Part shown: positions 1,989 to 26,994 of the stretch, in pieces
Layout: each line of letters begins with the position of its first letter
How positions within the stretch are numbered: the first letter of the stretch is position 1
Assembly (NCBI RefSeq): GCF_003334785.1
Contig: NZ_QOWV01000027.1
From: Escherichia coli
GTDB lineage: Bacteria; Pseudomonadota; Gammaproteobacteria; Enterobacterales; Enterobacteriaceae
Length of the DNA: 30,887 nt
Strand: one strand, 5' to 3'
Made by a program: the position numbers and the translations under genes
The notes under the pieces: generated by a model
The model's database searches: none
Told to the model about the DNA's origin: nothing
What the model saw: only the letters and a program-made list of their open reading frames with translations

Positions 1989-3278
1989 ATGAAAGTATTA
2001 GTGATTGGTAACGGCGGGCGCGAGCACGCGCTGGCCTGGAAAGCGGTCCAGTCGCCGCTGGTTGAGACTGTTTTTGTTGCTCCGGGTAATGCAGGCACTG
2101 CACTGGAACCCGCGCTGCAAAACGTTGCTATTGGCGTGACCGATATCCCGGCGCTGTTGGATTTCGCACAAAACGAAAAGATTGATCTGACCATCGTCGG
2201 CCCGGAAGCGCCGCTGGTGAAAGGCGTGGTCGATACCTTCCGCGCCGCCGGGCTGAAAATCTTCGGCCCAACCGCAGGTGCGGCCCAACTGGAAGGCTCA
2301 AAAGCGTTTACCAAAGATTTCCTGGCCCGCCATAAGATCCCTACGGCGGAATACCAGAACTTCACCGAGGTAGAACCTGCGCTGGCGTATCTGCGTGAGA
2401 AAGGCGCGCCAATCGTCATTAAAGCGGACGGTCTGGCTGCCGGGAAAGGCGTTATCGTGGCGATGACGCTGGAAGAAGCGGAAGCGGCTGTTCACGATAT
2501 GCTGGCGGGCAACGCTTTTGGCGACGCGGGTCATCGCATCGTTATCGAAGAGTTCCTCGATGGCGAAGAAGCGAGCTTTATCGTGATGGTGGACGGCGAG
2601 CATGTGCTGCCGATGGCTACCAGCCAGGATCACAAACGCGTAGGCGATAAAGATACCGGACCAAACACCGGCGGGATGGGCGCTTACTCCCCCGCGCCGG
2701 TAGTAACCGATGACGTTCATCAGCGCACCATGGAACGTATTATCTGGCCAACCGTGAAAGGCATGGCGGCGGAAGGCAACACCTACACCGGTTTTCTCTA
2801 CGCGGGCCTGATGATCGACAAACAGGGCAATCCGAAGGTTATTGAATTTAACTGCCGCTTTGGCGATCCGGAAACCCAGCCGATTATGCTGCGCATGAAG
2901 TCCGATCTGGTTGAGCTCTGCCTGGCGGCCTGTGAAAGCAAACTGGACGAGAAAACGTCCGAGTGGGATGAACGCGCTTCTCTCGGCGTGGTGATGGCTG
3001 CGGGTGGATATCCGGGTGATTACCGCACCGGTGACGTGATCCACGGCCTGCCGCTGGAAGAAGTGGCAGGCGGCAAAGTGTTCCACGCGGGCACAAAACT
3101 GGCGGATGACGAGCAGGTAGTGACCAACGGCGGGCGCGTACTGTGCGTCACCGCGCTGGGTCATACCGTGGCAGAAGCGCAGAAACGCGCCTATGCCTTA
3201 ATGACCGATATCCACTGGGACGACTGCTTCTGCCGGAAAGATATCGGCTGGCGCGCTATCGAACGCGAGCAGAACTAA
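1989..3278 (+). CDS. purD: Phosphoribosylamine-glycine ligase (GAR synthetase)
   Basis: 429 aa, MKVLVIGNGGREHALAWKA N-terminus, ATP-grasp fold; 11 nt downstream of purH stop (operon). Confidence 0.97.
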   Translation: MKVLVIGNGGREHALAWKAVQSPLVETVFVAPGNAGTALEPALQNVAIGVTDIPALLDFAQNEKIDLTIVGPEAPLVKGVVDTFRAAGLKIFGPTAGAAQLEGSKAFTKDFLARHKIPTAEYQNFTEVEPALAYLREKGAPIVIKADGLAAGKGVIVAMTLEEAEAAVHDMLAGNAFGDAGHRIVIEEFLDGEEASFIVMVDGEHVLPMATSQDHKRVGDKDTGPNTGGMGAYSPAPVVTDDVHQRTMERIIWPTVKGMAAEGNTYTGFLYAGLMIDKQGNPKVIEFNCRFGDPETQPIMLRMKSDLVELCLAACESKLDEKTSEWDERASLGVVMAAGGYPGDYRTGDVIHGLPLEEVAGGKVFHAGTKLADDEQVVTNGGRVLCVTALGHTVAEAQKRAYALMTDIHWDDCFCRKDIGWRAIEREQN

Positions 3279-4600
3279 CGCGACAGTTTTGCCAATAGCG
3301 TTTTGCGCGTGATCCCTAACTGACGGGCGGCTTCGGTTTTGTTGCCGCCCGTTTTCTCCAGCGCCGCCAGAATCACCTCTTTTTCCACTTCCACCAACGG
3401 CTGAATATCCTGACTTTGTCCCAGCGGGATCGGCGTACTGGCAATCGCCAGCGGCAGCTCGCGTTCGGAAATATATTCCCCGGTCAGCAGCACCACTGCC
3501 CGTTCCACCGCGTTTTCCAGCTCACGAATATTTCCCGGCCAGTCGTAATGAATCAACAGATCCATCGCCTGGGGCGTAAAACCTTTTACCGCCTTGCGAT
3601 TACGCTCGGCAAAGCGCTGCAGAAAATGGCCAGCCAGCAGAGGGATATCTTCCCGCCGTTGCCGCAGCGATGGTACTTCAATCGCCACCACATTCAGGCG
3701 ATAGTAGAGATCCTGGCGAAAACGCCCGGCATTCACCTCTGCGGCAAGATCGCGATGGGTCGCCGCAATCAGCCGGACATCAACCGAGATAATCTGGTTG
3801 CTACCGACACGCTGAACTTCGCGCTCCTGAATCGCACGCAGCAGACGCACCTGCATCATCGGCGAGATATCGCCAATTTCATCGAGAAACAGCGTGCCGC
3901 CGTCCGCCTCAACAAAGCGCCCTTCCCGGCGTTTATCGGCTCCAGTAAACGCCCCTTTTTCGTGACCGAACAATTCAGATTCCAGCAAGGATTCGTTGAG
4001 TGCCGCACAGTTGAGCGTTACCAGCGGTTTTTCGCTACGTGCGCTACTGGCGTGAATCGCCCTGGCGACCAGCTCTTTACCGGTGCCGGAATCGCCGTGG
4101 ATCAGTACCGTGGCTTCCGATGGCGCGACGAGGGCGATTTCACTGAGCAGGTGTTGCATCGCCGGGCTTTTACCGACCATACCGAACTGGCTGGCAGTCA
4201 CCGCAGGTGTTTCAGCATCAATACTGTGCGTATGCGCGAGCGCTTTTTCCAGCGTCGCCTGTAGGTTATCGAAATCCAGCGGCTTGATGAGATAATCCAG
4301 CGCCCCAGTTTTCAGTGCCTCTACCGCCGTCTCGACGCTGGAGTACGCAGTCATAATCAGCACCGGAATTGCCGGGTTTAACGCTTTGATCTCTTTCAGC
4401 GTGGCGATGCCGTCCATCTCCGCCATTCGCACATCGCAAAGCACAAGATCAAAAACCTGTTCCCGCACCTGCTCCAACGCCTGTCGCCCGCTGTTCGCCA
4501 GCGCGACGTTATAGCCCCAGCCGCGCAGTAAAGCCTGCAAAATAGTGCAGTGGCTAATGTCATCATCCACCACCAGAATATCGATATTATCGTGCGTCAT
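3275..4600 (-). CDS. zraR: Sigma54-dependent two-component response regulator (receiver + AAA+ sigma54 activator + HTH)
   Basis: 441 aa; receiver domain (DILVVDDD...D...K), Walker [15 protein letters not shown] sigma54-contact motif, C-terminal Fis-type HTH; stop overlaps the purD stop convergently (CTAA). Confidence 0.95.
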
Positions 4601-5994
4601 CCTTGTGGGTCCTTACGCGTAATATTGACCGGAAGCCAGAGGGTGAACGTTGAGCCTTTTCCCTCCTGGCTTGCGACCTGAATTGTACCACCGTGTTGTT
4701 CAACAATATTATGCACGACCGCCAGCCCCAATCCGGTGCCTTCGGCTTTAGTGGTGAAGTACGGAGTGAAGATGGCATCAAGCTGATCTGCCGCAATTCC
4801 CTTACCGCTGTCGGTAACGCTGATTTTCACGCCCGCGCCGCTTTCGCTGGCCGTCACGCTAATCACGCCATGCTGACCAATCGCCTGAATAGCATTGAGA
4901 TAGAGATTCAACAGGACCTGAGTCAGCCTGTCCGGGTCGGCCTGAATTTCCGGTAATGTGTCGTTGGCGGTAAAGCGTAACTGGATCTCCCGGCTGTTTG
5001 CATCCTGACTTACCAGCTGTAATGAGTGGTTAATCAGCGTGTTGAGATCCACCGCCTGCAAAGCCAGATGCGTTGGCTTAACCAGTTCCAGCAACTCGCT
5101 TACCACGCGGTTTAAACGGTCGGCCTCTTTCGCCATCACCTGCGCCAGTTGATGCGCTTCTCCCCCTGCAGGCGCGCGCTCGGCAAAGTATTTCGCCAGT
5201 CCTTTAATCGAGGAAAGTGGGTTACGGATTTCGTGGGCAACGCCTGCCGCAAGATGCCCCAGCGCCACCAGCTTCTCTTTGCGCTTCATTTCGTCTTGTA
5301 GAAGCTGGCGCGAGCGCAGATAGCGGCGATACCAGAAGAATGACAATACGCTTGCCAGCAAGACCGTCGCCAGGGCGAAGAGGATAATCAGGGTATTGCG
5401 CTTTTCCCCACTCTGGGTTGCAACCAGATCACTGGCATCAACGGCGATAAAAATAGCCTGTTGTGCATCTACTTGTGGCACAGCTTTGCCGTTACAGCGC
5501 GGCATATTGTGCATTCCATGCCGCCAGGGCGCTGACATTGGCTGGAACAAACGATAGACCTCAAGTGCAGGCGTAGTTTCCGTTTTCCCAAGCAGCCGCC
5601 AGCGGGAGTTTTCCTCTGGCTTTAATTTCTGCATTTCATCCGGCGAATAGAGCGCACGCCCGACCTTATCGGGGTCGCTATGAAGAATAATGATGCCCTG
5701 CGCATCGGTGACTGCGAACCACAACACTCCCGGCTGTCCCGCCATCTCTTCCAGAAGCGCCTGTTGCTGTACATGGTGCATTCGCATCCCCATCCCTACG
5801 CGGCTTCCCGACTCCAGAGCGCGGATAAGCACATTACCTTTTTCCAGTAATGCCTGGCGGTCTGCCTCGCTTGCCCGCCCATAATCACGAATCACAGTTA
5901 CCGCAAACAATCCCACCAGCCCAACAATGACCACGGGGAGGATCGCGCTTAACCATTTAGCTAAGGAGTCTTTAGAACGTTGCATAAAACGCAT
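4597..5994 (-). CDS. zraS: Sensor histidine kinase of the ZraSR (HydHG) system
   Basis: 465 aa; two TM segments flanking a periplasmic domain, H-box LAAGVAHEIRNPL, HATPase motifs; ATGA overlap with zraR start (translational coupling). Confidence 0.95.
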   Translation of the reverse strand: MRFMQRSKDSLAKWLSAILPVVIVGLVGLFAVTVIRDYGRASEADRQALLEKGNVLIRALESGSRVGMGMRMHHVQQQALLEEMAGQPGVLWFAVTDAQGIIILHSDPDKVGRALYSPDEMQKLKPEENSRWRLLGKTETTPALEVYRLFQPMSAPWRHGMHNMPRCNGKAVPQVDAQQAIFIAVDASDLVATQSGEKRNTLIILFALATVLLASVLSFFWYRRYLRSRQLLQDEMKRKEKLVALGHLAAGVAHEIRNPLSSIKGLAKYFAERAPAGGEAHQLAQVMAKEADRLNRVVSELLELVKPTHLALQAVDLNTLINHSLQLVSQDANSREIQLRFTANDTLPEIQADPDRLTQVLLNLYLNAIQAIGQHGVISVTASESGAGVKISVTDSGKGIAADQLDAIFTPYFTTKAEGTGLGLAVVHNIVEQHGGTIQVASQEGKGSTFTLWLPVNITRKDPQG

Positions 5995-6025
5995 CTTCTT
6001 CTTTGCCTGCTCATCCCTTTCTGAC

Positions 6026-6041
6026 AGCAGAAATCATGCCA
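6026..6041 (-). promoter_or_regulatory. Sigma54 (-24/-12) promoter for zraSR
   Basis: Minus strand reads TGGCATGATTTCTGCT: GG-N10-GC spacing exact, about 20 nt upstream of the zraS start. Confidence 0.55.
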
Positions 6042-6092
6042 TCTTTTATCAGCGCTTACCCTGCGCTGTAACACAAAGGCTTAAGTTTCAAT

Positions 6093-6138
6093 GAGTAAAA
6101 ATGACTCGCTACCCGCAGCAGGCGAGTCATTTTTACTC
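6093..6138. promoter_or_regulatory. ZraR enhancer: inverted repeat of two 17-bp half-sites between divergent sigma54 promoters
   Basis: GAGTAAAAATGACTCGC (6093..6109) and its exact reverse complement GCGAGTCATTTTTACTC (6122..6138) separated by 12 bp; position and symmetry match the described ZraR binding region of zraP/zraSR. Confidence 0.7.
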
Positions 6139-6180
6139 GTTTATCATGCCAGATTACCCGTCATATCAGCGTTTCATCGT

Positions 6181-6196
6181 TGGCACGGAAGATGCA
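6181..6196 (+). promoter_or_regulatory. Sigma54 (-24/-12) promoter for zraP
   Basis: TGGCACGGAAGATGCA: consensus TGGCACG-N4-TTGCA with GG-N10-GC spacing; about 36 nt upstream of the zraP ATG (6232) with GGAGG SD at 6220..6224. Confidence 0.75.
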
Positions 6197-6231
6197 ATAC
6201 CCGAAGTAAGACAACCACTGGAGGATTAACC

Positions 6232-6657
6232 ATGAAACGGAACACGAAAATTGCCCTGGTAATGATGGCGCTTTCAGCAATGGCGATGGGATCGACATCT
6301 GCATTTGCTCACGGCGGACACGGTATGTGGCAGCAAAATGCCGCGCCTTTGACCAGCGAACAACAGACAGCGTGGCAGAAAATCCATAATGACTTTTACG
6401 CTCAAAGCAGCGCACTGCAACAGCAACTGGTGACGAAGCGTTATGAATACAATGCCCTGTTAGCCGCGAACCCACCGGATAGCAGCAAAATTAACGCGGT
6501 CGCCAAAGAGATGGAGAATTTGCGTCAGTCGTTAGATGAGTTACGGGTGAAACGAGATATCGCGATGGCTGAAGCGGGTATTCCGCGCGGAGCCGGAATG
6601 GGCATGGGCTACGGCGGCTGCGGTGGTGGCGGTCATATGGGTATGGGCCACTGGTAA
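6232..6657 (+). CDS. zraP: Zinc-resistance-associated periplasmic protein (CpxP/Spy family chaperone)
   Basis: 141 aa starting MKRNTKIALVMMALSAMAMGSTSAFA (signal peptide); Gly/Met/His-rich C-terminal tail GAGMGMGYGGCGGGGHMGMGHW. The six-frame track ORF 6091..6657 is an in-frame upstream extension lacking RBS and overlapping the ZraR boxes. Confidence 0.93.
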   Translation: MKRNTKIALVMMALSAMAMGSTSAFAHGGHGMWQQNAAPLTSEQQTAWQKIHNDFYAQSSALQQQLVTKRYEYNALLAANPPDSSKINAVAKEMENLRQSLDELRVKRDIAMAEAGIPRGAGMGMGYGGCGGGGHMGMGHW

Positions 6658-11111: not shown

Positions 11112-11588
11112 ATGCTTAACCAGCTCGATAACCTGACGGAGCGCGTCAGAGGAAGTAACAAACTGGTTGATCGCTGGCTACATGTACGTAAGCATCTGCT
11201 CGTGGCTTACTACAATCTGGTTGGCATTAAGCCTGGCAAAGAATCGTACATGAGGCTAAACGAAAAAGCCCTTGATGATTTTTGTCAGAGCCTGGTCGAT
11301 TACTTGTCTGCCGGACATTTCAGTATTTATGAGCGCATTCTTCATAAGCTGGAAGGCAACGGGCAACTCGCGCGCGCCGCGAAGATTTGGCCGCAACTCG
11401 AAGCCAATACTCAACAGATTATGGATTACTACGATTCCAGTCTGGAAACCGCCATCGATCATGATAATTACCTTGAGTTTCAACAGGTTTTATCTGACAT
11501 CGGCGAGGCGCTGGAAGCGCGCTTTGTGCTGGAAGATAAGCTGATTCTGCTGGTGCTTGACGCCGCCCGCGTCAAACATCCTGCTTGA
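11112..11588 (+). CDS. rsd: Regulator of sigma D (anti-sigma70 factor)
   Basis: 158 aa MLNQLDNLTERVRGSNKLVDRWLHVRKHLLVAYYNLVG; divergent from nudC with 94-bp spacer. Confidence 0.95.
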   Translation: MLNQLDNLTERVRGSNKLVDRWLHVRKHLLVAYYNLVGIKPGKESYMRLNEKALDDFCQSLVDYLSAGHFSIYERILHKLEGNGQLARAAKIWPQLEANTQQIMDYYDSSLETAIDHDNYLEFQQVLSDIGEALEARFVLEDKLILLVLDAARVKHPA

Positions 11589-11622: not shown

Positions 11623-11648
11623 GCCCCATTTGCGGGGCTAATTTCTTG
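11623..11648 (+). terminator. Possible weak terminator / hairpin after rsd
   Basis: GCCCC-ATTTGC-GGGGC followed by TAATTTCTT; short stem and interrupted U-tract. Confidence 0.3.
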
Positions 11649-11740
11649 TCGGAGTGCCTTAACTGGCTGAGACCGTTTATTCGGGATCCGCGGAACCTGA
11701 TCAGGCTAATACCTGCGAAGGGAACAAGAGTTAATCTGCT
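11640..11740 (+). ncRNA. TPP (thiamine pyrophosphate) riboswitch, thi-box aptamer in the thiC leader
   Basis: Contains the conserved thi-box elements GGAGUGCC ... CUGAGA ... GGAACCUGAUCAGGCUAAUACCUGCGAAGGGAA; located 80-180 nt upstream of thiC ATG; followed by a second hairpin ATCGCC-CCTGC-GGCGAT (11748..11764) plausibly part of the expression platform. Aptamer boundaries approximate. Confidence 0.9.
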
Positions 11741-11817: not shown

Positions 11818-13715
<1,898 letters not shown>

Positions 13716-13716
<1 letters not shown>

Positions 13717-17432: not shown

Positions 17433-17600
17433 GAAAATAAGAACACATGTTCTCATCTTCCAGGATGCAGCAGACTGAAGAAATTCAGACATCCCGCAAC
17501 CTGCGATTATCGCAAGGTCAAGGCAAAGTCCGGTAATGGCGTTCTGAATACCAGAGATAATTCTCTGGCGAAACCCACCTTAAGGTGGGTTTTGTTATTT
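17433..17600 (+). ncRNA. sroH: Candidate small RNA (SroH-like) in the thiH/htrC convergent spacer, ending at an intrinsic terminator
   Basis: Promoter as above plus terminator AACCCACC-UUAA-GGUGGGUU followed by UUGUUAUUUU (17572..17600) define an approximately 165-nt non-coding transcript; an sRNA named SroH of about this size has been reported between htrC and thiH in E. coli K-12 (recalled from literature, exact coordinates not verified). Confidence 0.55.
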
Positions 17601-22646: not shown

Positions 22647-25600
22647 TTACTCGTCTTCCAGTTCGATGTTGATACCCAGCGAACGAATCTCTTTCAACAA
22701 TACGTTGAAGGATTCTGGCATGCCCGGCTCCATCTGATGGTTGCCGTCCACGATGTTTTTATACATCTTGGTACGACCGTTCACGTCATCAGACTTAACG
22801 GTGAGCATTTCCTGCAGGGTGTATGCTGCGCCGTATGCTTCCAGCGCCCACACTTCCATCTCCCCGAAACGCTGACCACCGAACTGTGCCTTACCACCCA
22901 GCGGCTGCTGAGTAACCAGGCTGTAAGAACCGGTGGAACGCGCGTGCATCTTGTCGTCGACCAGGTGGTTCAGTTTCAGCATGTACATGTAACCAACGGT
23001 TACCGGACGCTCGAACTGTTCACCAGTGCGACCATCGTACAGGCGGATCTGACCGGAAGTCGGCAGGTCGCCAAGTTTCAGCAGCTCTTTAATTTCTGCT
23101 TCTTTCGCACCGTCGAACACCGGCGTTGCGATTGGCATACCTTTGCGCAGGTTTTCAGCCAGACGCATAACTTCTTCATCGCTGAAGGTACTCAGGTCAA
23201 CTTTCTGACGAACGTCAGCGCCCAGATCGTACGCACGCTGGATGAATTCGCGCAGTTTCGCGACTTCTTGCTGCTGTTTCAGCATGGCGTTGATCTTGTC
23301 GCCGATACCTTTCGCAGCCATACCCAGGTGGGTTTCGAGGATCTGACCGATGTTCATACGAGACGGTACGCCCAGCGGGTTCAGTACGATGTCTACCGGC
23401 GTACCGTTTTCATCGTAAGGCATATCTTCGATCGGGTTGATCTTAGAAATTACACCCTTGTTACCGTGACGACCTGCCATCTTGTCACCAGGCTGGATAC
23501 GGCGTTTAACCGCCAGATATACCTTAACAATCTTCAGCACGCCCGGTGCCAGATCGTCGCCCTGGGTGATTTTGCGGCGTTTCGCTTCGAGTTTCTTCTC
23601 GAACTCGTGTTTCAGTTCGTCATACTGCTCAGCCAGCTGTTCCAGCTGATTTTGTTTCTCTTCGTCTGTCAGGCCCAGCTCCAGCCAGCGATCGCGCGGC
23701 AGTTTGTCGAGCTTCTCAGCTTCAACGCCACCGGCTACCAGCACAGCACGGATACGGCTGAACAGACCCGCTTCGAGGATCTGCAGTTCTTCAGACAGGT
23801 CTTTCTTCGCCTGTTTGAGCTGCATTTCTTCGATTTCCAGCGCACGTTTGTCTTTTTCTACGCCATCGCGAGTAAAGACCTGAACGTCGATAACCGTACC
23901 GGATACACCGTTTGGTACGCGCAGAGAAGAGTCTTTAACGTCAGAGGCTTTCTCACCGAAGATCGCACGCAGCAGTTTTTCTTCTGGGGTCAGCTGAGTT
24001 TCACCTTTCGGCGTTACCTTACCAACCAGAATGTCGCCACCGGTCACTTCCGCACCAATGTAAACGATACCGGATTCATCCAGTTTGGAGAGCGCAGCTT
24101 CACCCACGTTCGGGATGTCAGCGGTGATCTCTTCCGGACCCAGCTTGGTGTCACGGGACACACACGCCAGTTCCTGAATGTGGATGGTGGTGAAACGGTC
24201 TTCCTGAACAACACGCTCGGATACGAGGATGGAGTCTTCGAAGTTGTAACCATTCCACGGCATGAACGCTACGCGCATGTTCTGACCAAGCGCCAGTTCA
24301 CCGAGGTCGGTGGACGGACCGTCTGCCAGCACGTCGCCACGTTCAACCGGTTCACCCAGAGACACACACGGCATCTGGTTGATACAGGTGTTCTGGTTAG
24401 AACGGGTGTATTTGGTCAGGTTGTAGATGTCGATACCTGCTTCACCCGGATACATCTCGTCTTCGTTAACTTTGATAACGATACGGGAAGCATCCACGTA
24501 CTGAACGACACCACCACGTTTAGCTACCGCAGTTACACCGGAGTCAACGGCAACAGCACGTTCCATACCAGTACCAACCAGCGGCTTATCAGCGCGCAGA
24601 GTCGGAACGGCCTGACGTTGCATGTTCGCACCCATCAATGCACGGTTGGCGTCATCGTGTTCCAGGAACGGGATCAGGGACGCACCGACGGATACCACCT
24701 GCTGGGTGGATACGTCCATGTAGTCAACCTGGTCGCGGCTGAACAAGCTGGATTCGCCTTTGCTACGGCAAGTTACCAGGTCTTCTACGAAGTGGCCTTC
24801 TTCATCCAAGTTGGAGTTCGCCTGGGCGATAACGTAGTTGCCTTCTTCGATAGCAGACAGGTAGTGAATTTCGTCAGTTACAACACCGTCGGTCACTTTA
24901 CGATACGGAGTCTCAAGGAAGCCGTATTCGTTAGTCTGTGCGTACACGGACAGAGAGTTGATCAGACCGATGTTCGGACCTTCAGGGGTTTCGATTGGAC
25001 ATACGCGACCGTAGTGAGTCGGGTGTACGTCTCGAACTTCGAAGCCTGCACGTTCACGGGTCAGACCGCCTGGGCCGAGTGCGGAGATACGACGTTTGTG
25101 CGTAATCTCAGACAGCGGGTTGTTCTGGTCCATAAACTGAGACAGCTGGCTGGAACCGAAGAACTCTTTCACTGCTGCGGAAATCGGCTTGGCGTTGATC
25201 ATATCCTGTGGCATCAGGGTATCCAGATCGCCCAGAGACAGACGCTCTTTCACCGCACGCTCTACACGTACCAGGCCAACGCGGAACTGGTTTTCCGCCA
25301 TTTCGCCAACGGAACGGATACGACGGTTGCCGAGGTGGTCGATATCATCGACTTCGCCTTTACCGTTACGGATATCGATGAGCTTTTTCATAACATCAAT
25401 GATGTCGTCTTTGCTCAGGATACCGGAACCTTCGATTTCTTCGCGCAGCAGAGAACGGTTGAACTTCATACGACCAACCGCAGACAAGTCATAACGGTCT
25501 TCGGAGAAGAACAGGTTCTCGAACAGGCTTTCAGCTGCTTCACGAGTCGGCGGCTCGCCAGGGCGCATCATGCGGTAGATTTCTACCAGTGCGCTCAGAC

Positions 25601-26675
25601 GGTCGTTAGTTGGGTCGACACGTAAGGTTTCAGAGATATATGGGCCGTGATCCAGATCGTTGGTGAACAGCGTTTCGATACGCTTGTGACCAGACTGGCT
25701 CAGCTTAGCCAGCAGATCCAGGCTCAGCTCCATGTTCGCTGCGCAGATCAGCTCGCCGGTAGACTCATCAATATAGTCTTTAGCAACCACTTTACCTGCG
25801 ATGTACTCAACCGGGACTTCGATCAGTTTGACGTCGTCTTTTTCCAGCTGGCGAATGTGGCGCGCAGTGATACGGCGGCCTTTTTCTACGTACACTTTAC
25901 CGTTAGCTTCGATGTCAAAAGATGCGGTTTCACCACGCAGGCGTTCCGGCACCAGTTCCATCTGCAGCTTGTTATCACGGATTTCAAAGATAACTTTTTC
26001 AAAGAACAGGTCGAGGATCTGCTCTGTGGTGTAGTTCAGGGCGCGCAGAATGATGGTCGCAGGCAGTTTACGGCGACGGTCGATACGTACGAACAGGTTG
26101 TCCTTCGGATCGAATTCGAAGTCCAGCCAGGAACCACGGTAAGGGATGATACGCGCGTTATACAGCACTTTACCCGAAGAGTGGGTTTTACCTTTGTCGG
26201 AGTCAAAGAAGACGCCCGGACTACGGTGCAGCTGGGAAACGATAACACGCTCAGTACCGTTGATAACAAAGGTACCGTTGTCTGTCATGAGCGGAATTTC
26301 GCCCATGTAGACTTCTTGTTCTTTAATGTCTTTTACGGTGCCTTCCGGCGCTTCGCGCTCATAGATCACCAGACGCAGTTTAACGCGCAGCGGTGCGGAA
26401 TAGGTCACGCCACGGATTTGACATTCCTGGACGTCAAACACCGGTTCGCCAAGGCGGTAGCTGACGTATTGCAGCTCGGAATTACCGCTGTAGCTCTGAA
26501 TCGGGAATACGGAACGGAAAGCAGCTTCCAGACCATACTGCCCTTCAGGATCTTGCTCGATAAATTTCTGAAACGAGTCAAGCTGGATAGAAAGGAGATA
26601 AGGTACATCCAGAACTTGTGGACGTTTACCAAAATCCTTACGAATACGTTTTTTCTCGGTATAGGAGTAAACCAT
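22647..26675 (-). CDS. rpoB: DNA-directed RNA polymerase subunit beta
   Basis: 1342 aa from ATG 26675 ([35 protein letters not shown]) with GAGG SD; track ORF start at 26708 is an in-frame 11-codon extension. Rifampicin-resistance determining cluster I (codons 507-533, nt 25077..25157) reads [32 protein letters not shown] = wild type. Confidence 0.99.
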
Positions 26676-26924
26676 AGGGTTCCTCAGCTCGCTGACAAGT
26701 CGACCCATCTGTCCATTGAGCGGACAGTTTGTGCAACACTATTTTGTTGACCGGAAAATGGAACACTTTCCGCAATGCCTGTTGCTATCACGCTTAAACC
26801 ATTTCATTGCGATTTACACAGAACGGACGTCCTGTCGCAGTATATTAAGTCGTCGATAGAAACAAGCATTGAAAGGCACAGCAGTAGTCAAACAGTGTGA
26901 AACGCTACTGGCGCCTTACAGCGC

Positions 26925-26955
26925 AAAAAGGCTGGTGACTAAAAAGTCACCAGCC
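26925..26955 (-). terminator. rplL-rpoB intercistronic transcriptional attenuator
   Basis: Minus RNA: GGCUGGUGACU-UUUUA-GUCACCAGCC followed by UUUUUGC, about 40-70 nt after rplL stop; matches the classical partial terminator that sets the r-protein:RNAP ratio. Confidence 0.8.
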
Positions 26956-26994
26956 ATCAGCCTGATTTCTCAGGCTGCAACCGGAAGGGTTGGC

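What the first reader, a model, noticed from the sequence alone, without database searches (positions are those of the whole stretch)
6026..6231. Compact divergent sigma54 control region with a perfect 17-bp inverted repeat for ZraR
Two exact-spacing -24/-12 promoters face outward (zraSR at 6026..6041 minus, zraP at 6181..6196 plus) and between them sits a perfect inverted repeat GAGTAAAAATGACTCGC-N12-GCGAGTCATTTTTACTC. This matches the described architecture of the Zn/Pb-responsive zraP-zraSR locus; the half-sites are seen directly and are perfectly symmetric. The large six-frame ORF starting at 6091 is an artefact running through this operator.
Basis: partly seen in the sequence, partly recalled or inferred. 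Interest (0 to 1): 0.3.

Follow-up and report, generated by a model that had tools for sequence, protein, structure and literature searches.

The report
Known ZraR enhancer between zraP and zraSR

Summary
The arms 6093-6109 and 6122-6138 form a perfect 17-bp inverted repeat with 12 nt between them. The -24/-12 motifs lie at 6026-6041 (-) and 6181-6196 (+).

The window is E. coli K-12 (100% identical to MG1655): purD, zraR, zraS, then the divergent zraP. Published sigma-54 ChIP-seq lists exactly these two motifs. The strongest published ZraR ChIP-exo peak maps to window 6102-6134, inside the repeat. Genomic SELEX found this spacer to be ZraR's single high-affinity target.

In 39 orthologous spacers from seven enterobacterial genera, only the two promoters, the two 17-mers and the zraP RBS/start are conserved.

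One refinement: each 17-mer (6092-6108, 6123-6139) is itself a dyad, CGRGT-N7-ACYCG. It is therefore better read as a complete dimer site than as a "half-site". Site centres are 31-33 bp apart (about three helical turns), as in other bEBP enhancers. The perfect mirror identity is a detail of Escherichia.

The ORF from 6091 is an over-extension; zraP starts at 6232.

Verdict: real, correctly interpreted, already known, low interest.

The parts
3275..4600 (-). zraR: sigma-54-dependent response regulator (REC, AAA+ sigma-54 interaction domain, Fis-type HTH)
   Evidence: RefSeq annotation. Pfam Response_reg 8-117, Sigma54_activat 141-308, HTH_8 403-440. PDB 1OJL ZraR, E = 2.7e-177. The GAFTGA motif is visible in the translation.
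4597..5994 (-). zraS: sensor histidine kinase, first gene of the zraSR operon
   Evidence: RefSeq annotation; ORF.
6026..6041 (-). zraSR sigma-54 promoter, TGGCATGATTTCTGCT (-24 GG at 6040-6039, -12 GC at 6028-6027). Predicted TSS is about 6015, 21 nt before the zraS ATG.
   Evidence: Sigma-54 ChIP-seq site OS39, FAT 9 (PMC4591121). Nearly invariant in 38 of 39 orthologous spacers.
6092..6108 (.). Left ZraR site, TGAGTAAAAATGACTCG. Genus-wide consensus is CGRGTAAAAATGACYCG, with internal dyad xGAGT-N7-ACTCx. Centre at 6100.
   Evidence: The core G-GTAAAAATGAC-C is invariant or nearly so in 39 loci. It overlaps the edge of the ZraR ChIP-exo peak_9.
6109..6122 (.). 14-bp linker between the two sites. 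Its sequence is not conserved and its length is 14-16 bp among genera.
   Evidence: Alignment A1; spacing table.
6123..6139 (.). Right ZraR site, CGAGTCATTTTTACTCG (6 of 8 internal dyad pairs). It is the mirror image of the left site. Centre at 6131.
   Evidence: ChIP-exo peak_9 (6102-6134) ends inside it.
6093..6138 (.).
6181..6196 (+). zraP sigma-54 promoter, TGGCACGGAAGATGCA (-24 GG at 6182-6183, -12 GC at 6194-6195). Predicted TSS is about 6207, 25 nt before the zraP ATG.
   Evidence: Sigma-54 ChIP-seq site OS38, FAT 39 (PMC4591121). The Salmonella homologue is bound. Conserved in all genera.
6220..6224 (+). zraP ribosome-binding site GGAGG
   Evidence: Sequence; the GGAG block is conserved just upstream of the conserved ATGAAACGGAA start.
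6232..6657 (+). zraP: periplasmic accessory protein/chaperone (141 aa). This is the true start of the ORF that the ORF listing extends back to 6091.
   Evidence: RefSeq annotation. tblastn of orthologues begins at residue 1 at this ATG.

Best explanation
This is the shared enhancer (UAS) and the two divergent sigma-54 promoters of the ZraPSR envelope-stress / Zn-Pb-responsive system. The proposed sequence of events is as follows. ZraS phosphorylates ZraR. ZraR dimers occupy the two 17-bp dyad sites (centres 6100 and 6131, 31 bp or about 3 helical turns apart, so on one face of the DNA). The bound dimers nucleate the AAA+ hexamer. The hexamer loops to sigma-54 holoenzyme waiting in closed complex at the zraP promoter (right site centred about -76 from the TSS) or the zraSR promoter (left site centred about -85). 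ATP hydrolysis then drives open-complex formation. One enhancer therefore serves both the effector gene and autoregulation of the two-component system. Shown by data cited here: the locus identity, sigma-54 occupancy of both motifs, ZraR occupancy of the repeat in vivo, ZraR dependence of zraP and zraSR expression, and selective conservation of exactly these four blocks. Inferred: one dimer per 17-mer, hexamer assembly, and looping; these rest on analogy with NtrC and NorR.
For: Locus identity: 100% to MG1655, present once per genome in 5420 of 5426 complete E. coli genomes. Sigma-54 binding: ChIP-seq sites OS38 and OS39 have exactly these sequences. E-sigma-54 gSELEX gives a peak in the zraP/zraS spacer. 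The Salmonella homologues are bound and sigma-54-dependent. ZraR binding: ChIP-exo peak_9 (highest S/N, 72.97) at NC_000913.3 4201786-4201818 equals window 6102-6134, and the mapping was verified base by base. In gSELEX, 81 of 86 clones came from this spacer, ZraR's single high-affinity target. Regulation: in a zraR knockout with ZnCl2, zraP log2FC is -12.7 and zraS is -3.2. Phylogenetic footprint: in 21 aligned and 39 scanned spacers from Escherichia, Citrobacter, Salmonella, Klebsiella, Kluyvera, Kosakonia and Pluralibacter, only the two promoters, the two 17-mers and the zraP RBS/start are conserved; mean column identity is 57%. Two-dimer parse: each 17-mer has its own dyad (6 of 8 pairs). 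The internal N7 never changes length, while the linker is 14, 15 or 16 bp. The core GT-N7-AC equals the NorR dimer-site core. ZraR has the REC, AAA+ and HTH_8 architecture.
Against: Nothing contradicts it. Several gaps remain. The original DNase footprint paper (Leonhartsberger et al. 2001, J Mol Biol 307:93) is not in the held library. My recollection that it describes 'two inverted repeats separated by a 14 bp spacer' fits the 17/14/17 parse exactly but is memory, not a tool result. The central AAAAATG of each site is asymmetric yet invariant and mirrored, which a simple symmetric-dimer model does not by itself explain. A second ChIP-exo peak at 6222-6247 has no recognisable site. Basal zraS expression does not depend on ZraR (log2FC -0.02 without zinc), and no sigma-70-like promoter was found in 5900-6300.
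Confidence: 0.93

Rival explanations
1. One reading: a single large operator with two 17-bp half-sites separated by 12 bp, read as one symmetric unit by one ZraR oligomer rather than as two independent dimer sites.
For: The mirror identity of the two 17-mers includes the asymmetric centre (AAAAATG / CATTTTT). This centre is invariant and always mirrored in 39 loci. The ChIP-exo peak spans the middle of the whole unit rather than resolving into two peaks.
Against: Each 17-mer has its own dyad, CGAGT...ACTCG. The distance between the 17-mers varies (14-16 bp) while their internal spacing is fixed. Variable positions change independently in the two arms. A Fis-type HTH reads about 5-6 bp, not 17. 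NorR and NtrC enhancers are built from dimer sites of this size.
Confidence: 0.05
2. The inverted repeat acts as a nucleic-acid structure (a DNA cruciform, or an RNA hairpin/terminator or insulator) rather than as protein-binding sites.
For: A perfect 17-bp stem folds at -18.8 kcal/mol as ssDNA, z = -8.3.
Against: The repeat lies upstream of both predicted transcription starts (about 6015 leftward, about 6207 rightward), so neither mRNA contains it. No terminator-like site was found. At the positions that vary among genera, arm-to-arm Watson-Crick complementarity is not maintained (19/32 and 11/32 distinct pairs), which is the opposite of what a selected stem would show. ZraR occupies the site in vivo.
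Confidence: 0.01
3. The 188-aa ORF 6091-6657 is real, and the repeat is coding sequence of a longer ZraP isoform.
For: An uninterrupted frame starts at the ATG at 6091. Some O157:H7 RefSeq records annotate a 'hypothetical protein' over the repeat.
Against: zraP is annotated from 6232. The T of the 6091 ATG is C in most genera, and the stretch 6091-6231 is poorly conserved with indels, including an 11-bp one. A conserved GGAG RBS and the conserved ATGAAACGGAA start lie at 6220-6242. The sigma-54 promoter at 6181-6196 would start the mRNA downstream of 6091.
Confidence: 0.01

Closest known systems
The zraP-zraSR (hydHG) intergenic region of E. coli K-12 as described by Leonhartsberger et al. 2001 and in later genome-wide studies (PMC4591121, PMC7657598, PMC8249747)
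   Same: It is the same DNA: 100% identical to MG1655, with the same two sigma-54 motifs and the same ZraR-bound spacer.
   Different: Nothing differs. The only additions here are descriptive: the genus-wide consensus CGRGTAAAAATGACYCG, the 31-33 bp centre spacing, and the Escherichia-specific 11-bp shortening on the zraP side.
NtrC enhancer of glnAp2 (two 17-bp dyad sites about three helical turns apart upstream of a sigma-54 promoter; site geometry given from general knowledge)
   Same: Both have two dimer sites on one DNA face that nucleate an AAA+ oligomer. Both activators are response regulators with REC, AAA+ and Fis-type HTH domains. Two enhancer sites suffice for NtrC oligomers (PMC2831303).
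   Different: The recognition sequence differs. The ZraR sites lie closer to the promoters (about -76/-107 and -85/-116 rather than about -108/-140), and one enhancer serves two divergent promoters.
NorR enhancer in the divergent norR-norVW spacer
   Same: The sites are inverted repeats with core GT-N7-AC (PMC2831303). The ZraR cores GTAAAAATGAC and GTCATTTTTAC fit this exactly. Both have a divergent gene arrangement and are single-target regulators by gSELEX.
   Different: NorR needs three sites plus IHF, and only norVW is sigma-54-dependent. The ZraR region has two sites, no conserved IHF-like element, and sigma-54 promoters on both sides.

Membership tests
sigma-54 (-24/-12) promoters | GG and GC doublets exactly 10 bp apart within TGGCAC-N5-TTGCW | tested here: met
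   6181-6196 (+) has 1 mismatch and 6026-6041 (-) has 2 mismatches to TGGCACGNNNNTTGCW.
sigma-54 (-24/-12) promoters | Occupied by sigma-54 holoenzyme | tested here: met
   Published ChIP-seq sites OS38 (FAT 39) and OS39 (FAT 9) have identical sequences. In vitro gSELEX gives a peak in the spacer. This is literature evidence mapped onto the window, not a new experiment.
sigma-54 (-24/-12) promoters | Correct position and orientation relative to a gene start, and conserved in orthologous loci | tested here: met
   Predicted TSSs lie 25 and 21 nt before the zraP and zraS ATGs. The motifs are near-invariant in 38 of 39 spacers from 7 genera.
bEBP enhancer (UAS) of a NtrC-family activator | A cognate activator with an AAA+ sigma-54-interaction domain (GAFTGA) and a C-terminal HTH is encoded at the locus | tested here: met
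   ZraR has Sigma54_activat at 3.8e-73 and HTH_8 at 5.6e-15. GAFTGA is present in the translation. PDB 1OJL matches.
bEBP enhancer (UAS) of a NtrC-family activator | Dyad-symmetric sites about 80-150 bp upstream of the promoter, usually two or more, phased on one helical face | tested here: met
   The two 17-bp dyads have centres 31 bp apart (31-33 bp in 39 loci), 51.5 and 60.5 bp from the -24 GG doublets.
bEBP enhancer (UAS) of a NtrC-family activator | Bound by the activator | tested here: met
   ChIP-exo peak_9 maps to 6102-6134, and gSELEX finds a single target. This is literature data mapped here. The original DNase footprint could not be read.
bEBP enhancer (UAS) of a NtrC-family activator | The sites are required for activation (mutational test) | not testable with these tools
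   This needs promoter-fusion mutagenesis. Only the zraR-knockout dependence is available.
Intrinsic terminator / structured RNA | Stem followed by a T-run, lying within a transcript, with compensatory changes maintaining the stem | tested here: not met
   No terminator-like site was found. The repeat is upstream of both TSSs. Arm complementarity is not maintained at variable positions. No Rfam family matches there.

The most novel reading that the evidence does not exclude
The strictly conserved, mirrored polarity of the asymmetric A-tract centres (AAAAATG / CATTTTT) gives the enhancer a two-fold axis at 6115/6116. This symmetry might be functionally required for one ZraR hexamer to serve both divergent promoters. 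The Escherichia-specific loss of one helical turn (11 bp) between the right site and the zraP promoter would then retune the output ratio zraP:zraSR while keeping helical phase. Neither point seems to be discussed in the literature I could read.
Probability: 0.15. Interest if true: 0.3.

Novelty: already known. Interest (0 to 1): 0.08.

Why it matters
It matters little beyond serving as a positive control. A reader working from raw sequence correctly recovered a textbook-style sigma-54 control region, and independent published ChIP-seq, ChIP-exo and gSELEX data fall on the predicted bases. The comparative data give a cleaner ZraR site definition, CGRGTAAAAATGACYCG, present twice with centres 31-33 bp apart. 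That definition could be used to judge the disputed larger ZraR regulon: gSELEX reports a single target, while a ChIP-seq study reports about 25 additional targets.

Tried and rejected
1. IHF site between the enhancer and the promoters. TATCAGCGCTTAC (6047-6059) fits WATCARNNNNTTR and has a near-copy at 6164-6174 (direct repeats D1-D3). Neither is conserved outside Escherichia, so I dropped it.

2. Inverted repeat I2 (6170-6181 / 6228-6239) bracketing the zraP promoter. The right arm is the conserved zraP start, but the left arm is not conserved, so this is chance.

3. A sigma-70 promoter for basal zraSR expression. None was found in 5900-6300.

4. Extra copies of the site. Within the window the next best match to the 17-mer consensus has 4 mismatches (4616), which is about what chance gives.

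5. The mgtA ChIP-exo peak (the only extra 'direct target'). There is no full site, only an 11-nt half-site-like match about 65 nt from the peak.

6. Distant ZraS-like loci (Solidesulfovibrio and other delta-proteobacterial MAGs; L042, L043, L058). They have a divergent gene with a sigma-54-like motif, but no ZraR 17-mer and no comparable inverted repeat.

7. Text of the original footprint paper and of Rome et al. 2018. Neither is held. Sequence-string searches of the library returned nothing relevant.

8. My first sigma-54 pattern had the wrong spacing (N7) and returned nothing. I corrected it.

Full report
**Observation.** The sequence contains GAGTAAAAATGACTCGC at 6093-6109 and its exact reverse complement at 6122-6138, with 12 nt between them. 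The repeat finder reports the pair, extended to 20 nt at 95%. With up to three mismatches allowed, the 17-mer occurs nowhere else in the 30.9-kb window, and no shuffle gave two hits. TGGCAY-N6-TGCW matches at 6026-6041 on the minus strand (TGGCATGATTTCTGCT) and at 6181-6196 on the plus strand (TGGCACGGAAGATGCA), facing outward. My first pattern had the wrong spacing and found nothing. Motif counts alone are not compelling: there are 7 matches at <=2 mismatches against 7.1 expected. The case for the promoters therefore rests on context.

**Identity of the locus.** A 501-bp query around the finding is 100% identical to E. coli K-12 MG1655 and is present in 5421 of 5426 complete E. coli genomes. 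RefSeq annotates purD, zraR (window 3275-4600, -), zraS (4597-5994, -), zraP (6232-6657, +), yjaH and hupA. ZraR has the receiver, sigma-54-interaction AAA+ and Fis-type HTH domains, and its Salmonella orthologue has a solved structure, 1OJL. The 188-aa ORF from 6091 is therefore zraP extended upstream to the first in-frame ATG, and that ATG lies inside the left ZraR site.

**Published occupancy data mapped onto the window.**
- The E. coli sigma-54 ChIP-seq map lists OS38 TTGGCACGGAAGATGCA (zraP, FAT 39) and OS39 ATGGCATGATTTCTGCT (zraS, FAT 9). Predicted starts are 25 and 21 nt before the ATGs (PMC4591121). These are exactly the two motifs, and they put the starts near 6207 and 6015.
- The homologous Salmonella motifs are bound, and their genes are sigma-54-dependent (PMC3844500).
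- E-sigma-54 gSELEX also gives a peak in this spacer (PMC8743547).
- For ZraR, the ChIP-exo supplement of PMC7657598 gives peak_9 (S/N 72.97, the strongest) at 4201786-4201818 and peak_8 at 4201673-4201698.
- I fetched NC_000913.3 4201600-4202000, showed that its reverse complement equals window 5920-6320, and so mapped peak_9 to window 6102-6134, TGACTCGCTACCCGCAGCAGGCGAGTCATTTTT. This lies inside the repeat, between the centres of the two 17-mers.
- gSELEX with purified ZraR found this spacer as the single high-affinity target, with 81 of 86 clones (PMC8249747).
- In a zraR knockout with zinc, zraP falls by log2 12.7 and zraS by 3.2.

**Comparative evidence.** A scan of one genome per species with ZraS returned about 40 enterobacterial orthologous loci. 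tblastn placed zraP and zraS in each. In a 21-sequence alignment of the spacers, mean column identity is 57%. The conserved blocks are:
- GCAGAAATCATGCCA, the zraSR promoter;
- CGRGTAAAAATGACYCG, the left site;
- CGRGTCATTTTTACTCG, the right site;
- CTGGCACGGAAGATGCA, the zraP promoter;
- the GGAG ribosome-binding site with the ATGAAACGGAA start.

Everything else, including the 12-14 nt between the sites, is free to vary.

Across 39 loci:
- The two 17-mers (window 6092-6108 and 6123-6139) are separated by 14 bp in 25 loci, 15 bp in 12 and 16 bp in 2, giving centre-to-centre distances of 31-33 bp. The 7-nt interior of each site never changes length.
- The left centre lies 58.5-60.5 bp from the zraS -24 GG in all genera.
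- The right centre lies 59.5-64.5 bp from the zraP GG outside Escherichia, but 50.5-51.5 bp in Escherichia. That is a loss of about one helical turn, which preserves phase.

**Anatomy of a site.** Each 17-mer is itself a dyad. In CGAGTCATTTTTACTCG, six of eight mirror pairs are complementary, and the invariant core is G-GT-N7-AC-C. That core, GT-N7-AC, is the published core of the NorR dimer sites (PMC2831303). The internal dyad, the fixed internal spacing against a flexible linker, and a Fis-type HTH that reads only a few base pairs all point the same way. I therefore read the region as two complete ZraR-dimer sites in mirrored orientation about three turns apart, the usual design of bEBP enhancers, rather than as two half-sites of one operator. 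From memory, the original paper (Leonhartsberger et al. 2001) describes 'two inverted repeats separated by a 14 bp spacer'. That matches the 17/14/17 parse exactly, but I could not read the paper, so this is a recollection and not a result. The two sites differ at 0-4 positions in other genera, one E. coli lineage has a mismatch, and 1064 of 5420 E. coli genomes are only 95-99% identical over the 62 bp.

**Rivals.**
- *Hairpin, cruciform or terminator.* The stem would be stable, at -18.8 kcal/mol. However, the repeat lies upstream of both transcription starts, there is no terminator-like tail, and no Rfam family matches. At the positions that vary among genera the arms change independently: Watson-Crick pairing holds in only 19/32 and 11/32 distinct pairs.
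- *A coding reading of the 6091 ORF.* This is excluded by the annotation, by non-conservation of the ATG, by indels in 6091-6231, and by the promoter at 6181-6196 lying downstream of that ATG.
- *The single-operator parse.* This cannot be excluded by sequence alone. The invariant, mirrored, asymmetric A-tract centres are its best argument.

**Mechanism.** ZraS senses zinc, lead or envelope stress and phosphorylates ZraR. ZraR dimers on the two sites assemble the AAA+ hexamer, which loops to sigma-54 holoenzyme at either promoter and uses ATP to open it. The better match and four-fold higher sigma-54 occupancy of the zraP promoter fit its much stronger ZraR dependence. Occupancy and dependence are shown by the cited data. 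Stoichiometry, oligomerisation and looping are inferred from NtrC and NorR.

**Things that led nowhere.** An IHF-like match and several short direct repeats in the spacer are not conserved. No sigma-70-like promoter was found that would explain ZraR-independent basal zraS expression. Distant ZraS-like loci in delta-proteobacterial MAGs have a divergent gene with a sigma-54-like motif but no ZraR-type sites. No second good site exists in the window.

**Verdict.** The feature is real, sits at the stated coordinates, and was correctly interpreted. It is the known ZraR enhancer with its two sigma-54 promoters. Novelty: already known. Interest is low.

Noticed in passing
window 6222-6247: A second published ZraR ChIP-exo peak (peak_8, S/N 34) maps onto the zraP RBS and start codon, downstream of the zraP promoter, where there is no ZraR-like 17-mer. 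It may reflect cross-linking of the looped activator to E-sigma-54 at the promoter.
   Followed up: partly
window 6140-6180 versus L006-L039 spacers: The Escherichia species lack about 11 bp (one helical turn) between the right ZraR site and the zraP -24 element, relative to Citrobacter, Salmonella, Klebsiella, Kluyvera and Kosakonia. The zraS side keeps a constant distance in all genera.
   Followed up: partly
window 23536-23551 (-): A third TGGCAY-N6-TGCW match (TGGCACCGGGCGTGCT) lies in sense orientation inside the 1353-aa ORF 22647-26708 (rpoB-sized). It is not among the sigma-54 ChIP-seq sites in the main text of PMC4591121, and about 0.5 such hits are expected per window, so it is probably chance.
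   Followed up: partly
window 11640-11740 (+), 17433-17593 (+), 26929-26990 (-): Rfam matches above gathering score: a TPP riboswitch ahead of the 631-aa ORF at 11821-13716 (thiC-sized), the sRNA sroH, and family 'P26'.
   Followed up: no
L067 (NC_000913.3 about 4467631-4467647, start of mgtA): mgtA is the only extra 'direct' ZraR target in the ChIP-exo study. Near it, the minus strand reads CGGGTAAAAATTTCTTT: the first 11 nt match the ZraR site consensus exactly and the other half does not. It lies about 60-75 nt from the reported peak_10.
   Followed up: partly
L004 and L005 (E. coli E69 and SCPM-O-B-8794), zraS: These E. coli genomes carry a ZraS allele only 83-84% identical to K-12. In the E69 allele (the one aligned), divergence and a 7-residue deletion are confined to the periplasmic sensor region (residues about 40-200), and the cytoplasmic part is nearly identical; zraP and the operator are nearly identical in both genomes. 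This suggests two sensor-domain alleles in the species.
   Followed up: partly
H11 and H15 (E. coli O157:H7 RefSeq records): Some RefSeq annotations place a 'hypothetical protein' over the ZraR operator.
   Followed up: no
window 11112-11588 (+) and upstream: A paper reports in vitro binding of ZraR to the rsd promoter (PMC10003395). The rsd-sized ORF is in this window, but no 17-mer with four or fewer mismatches to the ZraR consensus lies near it.
   Followed up: partly
L013 (Citrobacter youngae ATCC 29220) spacer: The left ZraR site has a substitution in the otherwise invariant core (TGAC to TAAC), while the right site is intact.
   Followed up: no
L042, L043, L058 (Solidesulfovibrio and other delta-proteobacterial MAGs): ZraS-like kinases (about 48% identity, full length) are preceded by a divergent small gene with a sigma-54-like -24/-12 motif. 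In L058 that gene encodes a Gly-rich secreted-looking protein. No ZraR-type 17-mers are present, so the architecture may be older than the enterobacterial site sequence.
   Followed up: partly
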